DNA of 64,000 bases from TPA_inf: Saccharomyces. Lineage: Eukaryota. This document shows positions 10,294 to 40,405 of this stretch, one piece after another. The first letter of the stretch is position 1; every line of letters starts with the position of its first letter. The stretch lies in contig BK006948.2 in the NCBI GenBank assembly GCA_000146045.2, positions 96,001-160,000 on the forward strand. Reading direction: 5' to 3'. The translations under genes were made by a program, and so were the position numbers. The notes beneath the pieces were generated by a model, which ran no database searches, was not told the DNA's origin, and saw only the letters and a program-made list of their open reading frames with translations.

Positions 10294-10709
10294 AATTTAG
10301 CTTTTTTTTATTTAGGAGAAACAATATATATATATATGTATATACGTATGTATGATTCATATTTTAATCGCATTTTTATTTCATCTAAAACAATTACTCT
10401 TTTTGATTATTTATAGAAAAAAAACAACAATGATACGTTTGCTTCGCGTTATGTCAATAGAAAATGTAAAAGGAAAAAGAATGTGTTGCTATTCGTTAGG
10501 CGGATTTACGGATGGAAGACATATCTATGAACTGAGCTTACAAACGCTTTTAGCGGGGACAGTTAATCATTTTACGGATGATTTTATAAGAATAAACTAT
10601 TTTTGAAAAGTTAGGATAGTATTTTGTACATTTGGCACCGAAGTAATTCAAAATCGAGGAAGACTCGCACACTTTTACAATCACAGAAGGCAAAACCCGG
10701 CATGACAGG

Positions 10710-14961: not shown

Positions 14962-15033
14962 TGAGCGGTACGAGAATCGAACCCGTGTCCCCACCTTGGA
15001 AGGGTGGGATGATAACCACTACACTAACCGCCC
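14962..15033 (-). tRNA. tG(UCC): tRNA-Gly (anticodon UCC), 72 nt
   Basis: Reverse complement reads GGGCGGTTAGTGTAGTGGTTATCATCCCACCCTTCCAAGGTGGGGACACGGGTTCGATTCTCGTACCGCTCA. It has a 7-bp acceptor stem, an A box (TAGTGTAGTGG), a B box (GGTTCGATTCT) and anticodon loop CTTCCAA, followed by an oligo-T pol III terminator on the minus strand (plus-strand A7 at 14927..14933). Confidence 0.95.
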
Positions 15034-17801: not shown

Positions 17802-17874
17802 GCTTCTATGGCCAAGTTGGTAAGGCGCCACACTAGTAATGTGGAGATCATCGGTTCAAATCCGATTGGAAGCA
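17802..17874 (+). tRNA. tT(AGU): tRNA-Thr (anticodon AGU), 73 nt
   Basis: GCTTCTATGGCCAAGTTGGTAAGGCGCCACACTAGTAATGTGGAGATCATCGGTTCAAATCCGATTGGAAGCA. It has a 7-bp acceptor stem (with one G-U pair), an A box (TGGCCAAGTTGG), a B box (GGTTCAAATCC) and anticodon loop ACTAGTAAT, hence anticodon AGT. Confidence 0.95.
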
Positions 17875-39838: not shown

Positions 39839-40080
39839 TGTGAAGATTCGACGAACTGTGTTGAAAGTGCGTATAATTGGTCTTCGTGCCGTTTTTTGGG
39901 TCACTTTCAACTTTTCAGCGAGTAGTTTCTCTCACTATATCTTACGCTCTGTTAAAATCTTTTGCCACTACTTCAAAATTACGATCTATGGGATGAAAAA
40001 TTTACATGAATTTACCAATACTCGGAAAAATGCAGGACAAGAAATAAGAACATTTGTATAATACAAGAGACGCATATACA

Positions 40081-40187
40081 CATACCTACTCAGATAAGTT
40101 TAACGAGTTTCTCTTCCATAGGAGGGTCTAATCTCCTTCAGAAGTCTAACGTCTAAAAGTTCGTAAAGAATATCATCATAAAGTATG
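40081..40187 (-). ncRNA. Candidate box C/D snoRNA (about 105 nt), possibly the snR58 locus. Tentative.
   Basis: On the minus strand, 5'-CCAUAC-UUU-AUGAUGA (C box, complement of 40173..40179) ... CUGA (D box, complement of 40090..40093)-GUAG-GUAUG-3'. The 5-nt terminal stem CAUAC/GUAUG brackets the C and D boxes, and a possible internal D' CUGA is present. It lies in a 690-bp ORF-poor gap between YOL098C and WRS1. rRNA guide complementarity was not verified. Confidence 0.35.
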
Positions 40188-40219
40188 GTATACAAAATTT
40201 ACTGTGCAACAACAGCACA

Positions 40220-40405
40220 ATGCAGTCCATGATCTGCTCATCTGAGCACGAAAACCTAACCTGCAAGTACTGGCCTGTTAGCTTCCTCGCTTCTTGGTGT
40301 GAGAATGGGTCTGGCACACTGATGCAGAAAGATGGTAGTCTTTTATATGCCGTGAAAAATTTTTCCCATATATTTGAAAAAAAAATTTTTCATACCAATC
40401 TATAG
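40220..40405 (+). CDS. Small ORF (61 aa), possibly the annotated small protein YOL097W-A. Coding status uncertain.
   Basis: 61-aa ORF MQSMICSSEHENLTCKYWPVSFLASWCENGSGTLMQKDG... in the YOL098C-WRS1 intergenic region. I recall a small W-strand ORF annotated here but cannot confirm. Confidence 0.25.
   Translation: MQSMICSSEHENLTCKYWPVSFLASWCENGSGTLMQKDGSLLYAVKNFSHIFEKKIFHTNL

What the first reader, a model, noticed from the sequence alone, without database searches (positions are those of the whole stretch)
40081..40187. Candidate box C/D snoRNA in the YOL098C-WRS1 gap
The minus strand shows the canonical snoRNP architecture. A short terminal stem (CAUAC ... GUAUG) encloses a C box AUGAUGA near the 5' end and a D box CUGA near the 3' end about 85 nt apart, with an internal CUGA that could be D'. 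The gap between the two flanking genes is unusually long (about 690 bp) for this compact genome. I have a faint recollection that snR58 maps near WRS1 but cannot verify it; if this is an annotated snoRNA it is not novel, and if not it deserves testing.
Basis: partly seen in the sequence, partly recalled or inferred. Interest (0 to 1): 0.5.

Follow-up and report, generated by a model that had tools for sequence, protein, structure and literature searches.

The report
Known yeast snoRNA snR58 (SNR58)
The candidate is real but not new: it is SNR58, the well-characterised budding-yeast box C/D small nucleolar RNA that guides 2'-O-methylation of cytosine 663 in 25S ribosomal RNA.

Summary
Rfam identifies window 40088-40183 (-) as snR58 (RF01199) over its full length: 116.4 bits against a cut-off of 70, E = 8e-18. 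The flanking genes are S. cerevisiae WRS1 (100% identity) and an M16-peptidase gene, 688 bp apart.

The 14 nt upstream of the internal CUGA (D') pair with 25S rRNA 659-672 (13 Watson-Crick pairs plus 1 G-U). The fifth guide position lies opposite C663, the site the literature assigns to snR58. None of 500 shuffled guides did as well. The element upstream of the terminal D box has no rRNA target better than chance.

The RNA is nearly invariant in four Saccharomyces species. Its boxes and D' guide are identical in five more distant yeasts, where the D'-C' hairpin and the terminal stem are kept with different sequences.

A conserved AGNN-capped hairpin upstream is the published Rnt1 processing site of the pre-snoRNA. 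A conserved TATA box and Nrd1/Nab3-like motifs complete an independent gene.

Verdict: already known and ordinary. The only small extras are a D-side element that resembles the D' guide, and possible accessory pairing next to C663 in some other yeasts.

The parts
40088..40183 (-). snR58 box C/D snoRNA, 96 nt (Rfam boundaries)
   Evidence: Rfam RF01199, 116.4 bits (gathering score 70), E = 8e-18, full model. Nearly invariant across four Saccharomyces species, against 76% mean column identity for the whole intergenic alignment.
40173..40179 (-). C box AUGAUGA
   Evidence: Read directly. UGAUGA is invariant in 9 yeast species.
40142..40155 (-). D' antisense (guide) element UAGACGUUAGACUU. G40146 is the fifth nucleotide from D' and pairs with 25S C663.
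   Evidence: 14-bp duplex (13 Watson-Crick + 1 G-U) with 25S 659-672 of a Saccharomyces-type rDNA contig. 0 of 500 shuffled guides did as well. Identical in 9 species. Cm663 is assigned to snR58 in the literature.
40138..40141 (-). D' box CUGA
   Evidence: Read directly. Invariant in 9 species.
40120..40137 (-). Hairpin between D' and C' (AGGAG-AUUAGACC-CUCCU) that brings the two internal boxes together
   Evidence: Folds at -6.1 kcal/mol. A hairpin at the same place is kept with unrelated stem sequences in K. africana, N. dairenensis, T. globosa and Z. rouxii. It is absent in N. glabratus.
40112..40118 (-). Degenerate C' box UGGAAGA (the two GA dinucleotides are kept)
   Evidence: NGGAAGA or GUGAAGA is found at the same position in all 9 species. 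PMC8413462 lists snR58 among the snoRNAs whose C'/D' motif keeps both sheared pairs and the first pair of stem I.
40094..40111 (-). D-side spacer GAAACUCGUUAAACUUAU, which looks like a guide but has no canonical rRNA target
   Evidence: Best rRNA match is 7 Watson-Crick pairs in a run of 8; 84 of 100 shuffles do as well. Not conserved outside Saccharomyces. Its core is 9/10 identical to the D' guide (25 of 5000 shuffles).
40090..40093 (-). D box CUGA
   Evidence: Read directly. Invariant in 9 species.
40076..40195 (-). Terminal/external stem flanking the C and D boxes (5' arm about 40195-40182, 3' arm about 40089-40076).
   Evidence: MFE fold and duplex, -11.6 kcal/mol, 1% of shuffles as good. 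Flank complementarity is kept with different sequences in 7 of 9 species.
40206..40282 (-). 5'-leader hairpin capped by an AGAU (AGNN) tetraloop at 40243-40240: the Rnt1 (RNase III) processing signal of pre-snR58
   Evidence: Fold. The loop reads AGAU, AGAC or AGGU in four Saccharomyces species while the closing stem is kept. SNR58 is listed as an uncapped C/D snoRNA with a NET-seq signal over its Rnt1 site (PMC5934358 supplement). It is also listed as cleaved in vivo and in vitro at chrXV 136221/136222 on the minus strand (PMC13183374 supplement). That equals window 40221/40222 if the window starts at chrXV 96001, which is inferred.
40340..40358 (-). Conserved promoter block UUUUCACGGCAUAUAAAAG with a TATA box (TATAAAAG, 40347-40340), preceded by a T-rich tract
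   Evidence: Invariant columns 178-194 of alignment A1 across four Saccharomyces species. The promoter function is inferred, not tested.
40002..40089 (-). 3' flank with Nab3-like UCUUG (40068-40064, 40042-40038) and Nrd1-like GUAG/GUAA (40089-40086, 40015-40012, 40005-40002) motifs: the probable NNS terminator
   Evidence: Read directly. CUUG at the first site is kept in 4 of 4 Saccharomyces species and UCUUG at the second in 3 of 4. These are motif matches only; the function is inferred from the established NNS pathway for yeast snoRNAs (summarised in PMC5934358).

Best explanation
This is SNR58, an independently transcribed box C/D snoRNA gene of Saccharomyces cerevisiae chromosome XV, lying between WRS1 and YOL098C.

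Making the RNA:
1. RNA polymerase II starts downstream of a conserved TATA box and makes a capped, 5'-extended precursor (inferred from anatomy and from the class it belongs to).
2. Rnt1 recognises an AGNN-capped hairpin in the leader and cuts it (shown in published data).
3. 5'-3' exonucleases then trim to the mature end, and Nrd1-Nab3-Sen1/exosome forms the 3' end (inferred from the established pathway).

Structure and action:
- The C and D boxes, held together by a flanking stem, form the kink-turn that binds Snu13, Nop56, Nop58 and the methyltransferase Nop1.
- An internal hairpin juxtaposes D' with a degenerate C' box.
- The 14 nt upstream of D' base-pair with 25S rRNA 659-672.
- Nop1 methylates the 2'-OH of C663, the nucleotide opposite the fifth guide position. 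The pairing is shown here; the assignment of the modification comes from the literature.
- The sequence upstream of the D box is not a functional rRNA methylation guide.
For: - Identity: Rfam full-length snR58 match, 116.4 bits, E = 8e-18. The flank is 100% identical to S. cerevisiae Wrs1p. The other flank is a 1037-aa M16 peptidase, as in yeast strain genomes.
- Guide: the D' guide forms a 14-bp duplex with 25S, with position 5 opposite C663 (the 25S starts GUUUGACC and is 3396 nt long). 0 of 500 shuffled guides did as well.
- Literature on the target: Cm663 is guided by snR58 and is partly modified, 62-91% (PMC5199042). The same assignment appears in PMC2806949, a 2024 bioRxiv preprint and PMC5699541.
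- Conservation: snR58 lies at the syntenic place in S. mikatae, S. kudriavzevii and S. uvarum at 117-120 bits. Homologues with identical boxes and D' guide lie upstream of the YOL098C orthologue in K. africana, N. glabratus, N. dairenensis, T. globosa and Z. rouxii.
- Structure: the hairpin and terminal stem are kept with different sequences.
- Processing: the AGNN hairpin is conserved, and Rnt1 cleavage of SNR58 is published.
- C'/D' motif quality is noted in PMC8413462.
Against: Nothing substantive.
- No expression or protein-binding data could be generated here; those rest on the literature.
- The leader hairpin's folding energy is not better than shuffles (z = -0.5), so its role rests on the conserved AGNN loop and the published cleavage data.
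- The mapping of the published chrXV cleavage coordinate onto the window assumes an offset of 96000.
- The rDNA used for the pairing test came from metagenome contigs of Saccharomyces type, not from a named S. cerevisiae record.
- With a looser statistic (run length counting G-U pairs), 7 of 300 shuffled guides matched the D' duplex.
Confidence: 0.98

Rival explanations
1. snR58 has two working guides: the D-side element (GAAACUCGUUAAACUUAU) also directs a methylation, on rRNA or on another RNA such as an snRNA, tRNA or mRNA.
For: It sits in the canonical guide position directly upstream of the D box. It is conserved within Saccharomyces (one substitution).
Against: - No 18S/5.8S/25S match better than shuffled sequence in any of 9 species. 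The one marginal case, N. dairenensis at 5 of 100, is not at a known site and falls within multiple testing.
- The element differs between genera, while the D' guide is invariant.
- The literature read here lists only Cm663 for snR58.
- Non-rRNA targets could not be searched.
Confidence: 0.05
2. The D-side element is an accessory ('extra base-pairing') element, or a decayed copy of the D' guide, that contacts 25S next to or over the C663 target and modulates how efficiently this partly modified site is methylated.
For: - In K. africana and T. globosa the D-side element's best duplex among 1029 windows of 18S+25S lies at 25S ~651-685 (rank 1). In N. dairenensis it is rank 9.
- These three share GUAUAGAUAU.
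- In S. cerevisiae the D-side core is 9/10 identical to the D' guide (25 of 5000 shuffles).
- Accessory pairing is established for many yeast snoRNAs, often in the unused second guide region (PMC3116282).
- Cm663 is substoichiometric.
Against: - In Saccharomyces itself the pairing near C663 is weak (-8.2 kcal/mol, rank 62-65 of 1029).
- In the best register it overlaps the D' target, so the two would compete, and there is a mismatch at C663.
- Z. rouxii and N. glabratus show nothing.
- snR58 is not among the 24 snoRNAs listed by van Nues et al..
Confidence: 0.12
3. The long WRS1-YOL098C gap is explained by a small protein-coding gene (the 61-aa ORF at 40220-40405 on the + strand), and the C/D-like motifs are incidental.
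For: One strain annotation calls this ORF as a gene (L001 4421-4606). It has an ATG and 61 codons.
Against: - The ORF is broken by stop codons and frameshifts in S. mikatae, S. kudriavzevii and S. uvarum.
- There is no Pfam hit on record.
- Its only conserved stretch coincides with the Rnt1 hairpin on the other strand.
- The snoRNA evidence stands on its own.
Confidence: 0.01

Closest known systems
snR58 (Rfam RF01199; S. cerevisiae gene SNR58 / YNCO0003C)
   Same: Everything tested is the same: full-length model match above the curated cut-off, C/D'/C'/D box order, a D' guide for 25S C663, position next to WRS1 on a Saccharomyces chromosome, and Rnt1-processed leader.
   Different: Nothing. 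It is this gene.
Other independently transcribed, Rnt1-processed ('uncapped') yeast box C/D snoRNAs, e.g. SNR47, SNR60, SNR65, SNR68, SNR69
   Same: 5'-extended precursor with an AGNN-capped hairpin cut by Rnt1, probable NNS-type 3' end, and a single snoRNA per transcription unit (PMC5934358 supplementary tables).
   Different: Different guides and targets. snR58 uses only its D' guide, and its site Cm663 is one of the few substoichiometric 25S sites.
Rfam clan CL00077 and the human guide for the equivalent 28S site
   Same: The Cm663 site is stated to be conserved between yeast and human ribosomes, near the exit tunnel and uL4 (bioRxiv 10.1101/2024.08.07.607065). Rfam places snR58 in clan CL00077.
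   Different: The identity of the human orthologue was not tested here. My recollection is that it is SNORD104 (U104), from memory only. Human box C/D snoRNAs are typically intronic, whereas SNR58 is an independent gene.

Membership tests
Box C/D snoRNA | C box (RUGAUGA) near the 5' end and D box (CUGA) near the 3' end | tested here: met
   AUGAUGA at 40179-40173 and CUGA at 40093-40090. Both are invariant in 9 species.
Box C/D snoRNA | Terminal stem that brings C and D together (kink-turn context) | tested here: met
   13-bp flanking stem, -11.6 kcal/mol, 1% of shuffles as good. Kept with different sequences in 7 of 9 species. It lies mostly outside the mature boundaries, so it is probably a precursor stem.
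Box C/D snoRNA | Antisense element of at least 10 nt directly upstream of D or D', with the modified nucleotide opposite position 5 | tested here: met
   14 bp with 25S 659-672. Position 5 (G40146) lies opposite C663. 0 of 500 shuffles as good.
Box C/D snoRNA | The predicted target is a known 2'-O-methylated nucleotide | tested here: met
   Cm663 of 25S is mapped by HPLC and RiboMeth-seq and assigned to snR58 (PMC5199042; PMC5699541).
Box C/D snoRNA | Internal C'/D' pair | tested here: met
   D' CUGA at 40141-40138 and degenerate C' UGGAAGA at 40118-40112, joined by a covarying hairpin. The literature notes that both sheared pairs are present.
Box C/D snoRNA | Stable ~100-nt RNA bound by Snu13, Nop56, Nop58 and Nop1 | not testable with these tools
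   Indirect literature support only. snR58 is measured in RNA-seq and microarray studies and in snoRNP studies.
snR58 (Rfam RF01199) | Covariance-model score at or above the curated gathering score of 70 bits | tested here: met
   116.4 bits, model positions 1-97 of 97, E = 8e-18.
snR58 (Rfam RF01199) | Conserved genomic position and sequence in related species | tested here: met
   Downstream of WRS1 in S. mikatae, S. kudriavzevii and S. uvarum. Upstream of the YOL098C orthologue in five further genera, with an identical D' guide.
Rnt1-dependent pre-snoRNA | 5' leader hairpin capped by an AGNN tetraloop, cut about 14-16 bp from the loop | tested here: met
   AGAU loop at 40243-40240 on a long irregular stem. 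The loop is AGAU, AGAC or AGGU in four species. The published in vivo and in vitro cut is at chrXV 136221/136222, which is 18 nt 3' of the loop under the inferred offset. The fold's z-score alone is not significant.

The most novel reading that the evidence does not exclude
The apparently unused D-side 'guide' of snR58 is not inert spacer. It may be a decayed duplicate of the D' guide in Saccharomyces. In K. africana, T. globosa and N. dairenensis it may be a conserved accessory element that pairs with 25S right next to C663. Either way it could tune how fully this naturally substoichiometric site near the exit tunnel is methylated. snR58 is not in the published list of snoRNAs with such extra base-pairing.
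Probability: 0.12. Interest if true: 0.2.

Novelty: already known. Interest (0 to 1): 0.04.

Why it matters
It matters mainly as a control. A reader working from raw sequence alone correctly recognised a genuine box C/D snoRNA and its likely name, and every check agrees. Biologically, snR58 directs one of the few partly modified 2'-O-methylations of yeast 25S rRNA. The site lies near ribosomal protein uL4 and the peptide exit tunnel, and is of interest for ribosome heterogeneity. That is established knowledge, and nothing here changes it.

Tried and rejected
I replaced it with the exact complement of the guide plus conserved LSU context recalled from memory. The hits were then verified as eukaryotic LSU by Rfam.
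2. The '18S' of contig L040 turned out to be chimeric with a prokaryotic rRNA operon. The 18S scan was repeated with L007.
3. A run-length statistic that counts G-U pairs was too permissive for U/G-rich guides (7 of 300 shuffles matched the D' duplex). Ranking by Watson-Crick pairs first gave 0 of 500.
4. RNAalifold on the MAFFT alignment of nine species found only a spurious small helix, because the variable hairpin is misaligned. I replaced it with per-species folding.
5. The leader fold energy is not significant against shuffles. I relied instead on the conserved AGNN loop and on published cleavage data.
6. Rfam at gathering score found no snR58 in N. glabratus, K. lactis or K. africana. 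An E-value search and a direct guide search recovered homologues in all but K. lactis, where synteny is broken.
7. Supplementary files of van Nues et al. 2011 are not held, so I could only check the main-text list.
8. One literature query failed on the term 'C/D'.
9. I considered and rejected the 61-aa antisense ORF as a real gene.

Full report
**Observation.** On the minus strand of the window the sequence reads, 5' to 3': GUAUAC-CAUAC-UUU-AUGAUGA ... UAGACGUUAGACUU-CUGA-AGGAGAUUAGACCCUCCU-A-UGGAAGA-GAAACUCGUUAAACUUAU-CUGA-GUAG-GUAUG-UGUAUA.

- CAUAC at 40187-40183
- C box AUGAUGA at 40179-40173
- internal CUGA at 40141-40138
- D box CUGA at 40093-40090
- GUAUG at 40085-40081

The gap between the stop codon of the 432-aa gene (40527) and the ATG of the next gene (39838-39836) is 688 bp.

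**Identity.** A scan of the whole window against Rfam 15 at curated thresholds gives three hits: two tRNAs, and snR58 (RF01199) at 40088-40183 on the minus strand. The snR58 hit scores 116.4 bits against a gathering score of 70, E = 8e-18, and covers model positions 1-97 of 97.

The 432-aa neighbour is a class I Trp/Tyr tRNA synthetase. It is 100% identical to S. cerevisiae Wrs1p. The same protein lies in the same gene order in complete S. cerevisiae strain chromosomes: UvrD-type helicase, methyltransferase, WRS1, then a 1037-aa M16 peptidase. The window is therefore S. cerevisiae chromosome XV, and the element is the annotated gene SNR58. A 2026 dataset lists it as SNR58 / YNCO0003C on chrXV, minus strand.

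**Target.** I took rDNA from public metagenome contigs found with the complement of the D' guide. I confirmed with Rfam that they hold a Saccharomyces-type unit: 18S, 5.8S, a full-length eukaryotic LSU, and 5S on the opposite strand. The 25S starts GUUUGACC and is 3396 nt long.

The 14 nt upstream of D' pair with 25S 659-672 (13 Watson-Crick pairs and one G-U). The fifth guide nucleotide from D' (G40146) lies opposite C663. With 18S, 5.8S and 25S as targets, 0 of 500 shuffled guides reached this. A looser run-length statistic gave 7 of 300.

Cm663 is a mapped 2'-O-methylcytidine assigned to snR58. It is one of the few partly modified 25S sites, at 62-91% depending on method (PMC5199042). The same assignment appears in PMC2806949, PMC5699541 and a 2024 preprint, which places the site near uL4 at the exit tunnel and calls it conserved in human.

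The element upstream of the terminal D box has no rRNA match better than chance. Its best is 7 Watson-Crick pairs in a run of 8, and 84 of 100 shuffles do as well.

**Conservation.** Orthologous loci were fetched through WRS1 relatives.
- snR58 is found at 117-120 bits downstream of WRS1 in S. mikatae, S. kudriavzevii and S. uvarum.
- In the alignment of the whole intergenic region, the snoRNA is nearly invariant while the region as a whole averages 76% column identity.
- In K. africana, N. glabratus, N. dairenensis and T. globosa, weaker Rfam matches (29-51 bits, below the cut-off) lie just upstream of the YOL098C orthologue.
- A direct search for the guide also finds the Z. rouxii copy.
- In all nine species the C box, the 14-nt D' guide, D', a GA..GA-type C' box and the D box are kept.
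- The hairpin between D' and C' is kept in eight species with unrelated stem sequences. Flank complementarity around C/D is kept in seven with different sequences. This is the pattern expected of structural rather than sequence constraint.
- No copy was found near WRS1 in K. lactis, where synteny is broken.

**Gene anatomy and biogenesis.** Upstream lies an invariant block UUUUCACGGCAUAUAAAAG, with TATAAAAG at 40347-40340 behind a T-rich tract.

Between it and the snoRNA, the leader folds into a long irregular hairpin (40282-40206) capped by AGAU at 40243-40240. The loop reads AGAU, AGAC or AGGU in the four Saccharomyces species while its closing stem is kept. This is the AGNN signature of Rnt1 substrates.

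Published data confirm the processing:
- SNR58 is classed as an uncapped C/D snoRNA made from a 5'-extended precursor, with a NET-seq signal over its Rnt1 site (PMC5934358 and its supplementary tables 1-2).
- It is cut in vivo (log2FC 10.4) and in vitro (8.3) at chrXV 136221/136222 on the minus strand (PMC13183374 supplementary table 1).
- If the window starts at chrXV 96001, that cut is window 40221/40222, which is 18 nt 3' of the tetraloop and inside the stem, as Rnt1's ruler mechanism predicts. The offset is inferred, not verified.

Downstream there are Nab3-like UCUUG and Nrd1-like GUAG/GUAA motifs, partly conserved. Their role as an NNS terminator is inferred from the general pathway. snR58 was also among the RNAs raised in a TRAMP interaction mutant (PMC4330371).

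**Mechanism.**
- Shown here: identity, boxes, guide-target duplex, conservation and covariation.
- Taken from the literature: Cm663 depends on snR58, and Rnt1 cuts the precursor.
- Inferred from the established box C/D snoRNP model: Snu13/Nop56/Nop58/Nop1 assembly on the C/D and C'/D' kink-turns, methyl transfer by Nop1 to the nucleotide opposite guide position 5, Rat1/Xrn1 trimming, and NNS/exosome 3' end formation.

**Rivals.**
- A second functional guide at the D box is unlikely, because it has no target and is not conserved across genera.
- A 61-aa ORF on the opposite strand (40220-40405), called in one strain annotation, is disrupted in the three other Saccharomyces species and is most likely spurious.
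- A minor open point is the D-side element. In S. cerevisiae its core is 9/10 identical to the D' guide (25 of 5000 shuffles). In K. africana and T. globosa its best duplex in all of 18S+25S lies beside C663 (rank 1 of 1029 windows), and in N. dairenensis it is rank 9.
- That resembles the 'extra base-pairing' described for other yeast snoRNAs (PMC3116282), whose list does not include snR58.

**Verdict.** The finding is real, correctly interpreted, and already known: it is SNR58. Interest is low.

Noticed in passing
window 40220-40405 (+): A 61-aa ATG ORF, antisense to the snR58 leader and promoter, is called as a gene in one S. cerevisiae strain annotation (L001 4421-4606). It is broken by stops and frameshifts in S. 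mikatae, S. kudriavzevii and S. uvarum. Its only conserved part mirrors the Rnt1 hairpin on the other strand, so it is probably not a real coding gene.
   Followed up: yes
window 40094-40111 (-) versus 40142-40155 (-): The unused D-side element (CGUUAAACUU) is 9/10 identical to the D' guide (CGUUAGACUU); 25 of 5000 shuffles do as well. It is 8/10 in the other Saccharomyces species and not similar in other genera. It may be a decayed internal duplicate. In that register it would pair with 25S 657-674, with a mismatch at C663.
   Followed up: partly
L046 7035-7049, L048 10633-10649, L047 7001-7015 (D-side elements; coordinates approximate): K. africana, T. globosa and N. dairenensis share a D-side element, GUAUAGAUAU-CUGA. 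Its best duplex in 18S+25S lies at 25S ~651-685, beside or overlapping the C663 target (rank 1, 1 and 9 of 1029 windows). snR58 is not in the published list of snoRNAs with extra base-pairing.
   Followed up: partly
L040 10491-14809: Metagenome contig OGXL01001083.1 looks chimeric. After a complete yeast rDNA unit comes an '18S' that starts as eukaryotic but ends GGAUCACCU, then a tRNA and a bacterial-type LSU rRNA.
   Followed up: partly
L044, L046, L048, L049 (between WRS1 and the YOL098C orthologue): Outside Saccharomyces, snR58 stays next to the YOL098C orthologue rather than next to WRS1. A RIB3-like DHBP synthase gene lies in between, and in T. globosa and Z. rouxii so do an SLD5 gene and another gene. 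The WRS1-snR58 adjacency in S. cerevisiae therefore reflects gene loss or rearrangement.
   Followed up: partly
L044 7428-7502; L046 6967-7059; L047 6933-7027; L048 10568-10660; L049 ~10600-10700: The Rfam snR58 model at its gathering score (70 bits) misses clear orthologues in other Saccharomycetaceae, which score 29-51 bits. Z. rouxii is not reported even at E <= 1, despite an identical 17-nt guide plus D' box. The N. glabratus copy is short (72 nt from C to D) and lacks the D'-C' hairpin.
   Followed up: partly
window 17802-17874 (+) and 14962-15033 (-): Two tRNA genes were found by the Rfam scan (70.1 and 58.1 bits). They are unrelated to the finding.
   Followed up: no
window 40342-40358 (-): The block UUUUCACGGCAUAUAAA is invariant in four Saccharomyces species, so conservation extends beyond the TATA box itself. 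The CACGG part could be a binding site for a factor, which was not identified here.
   Followed up: no
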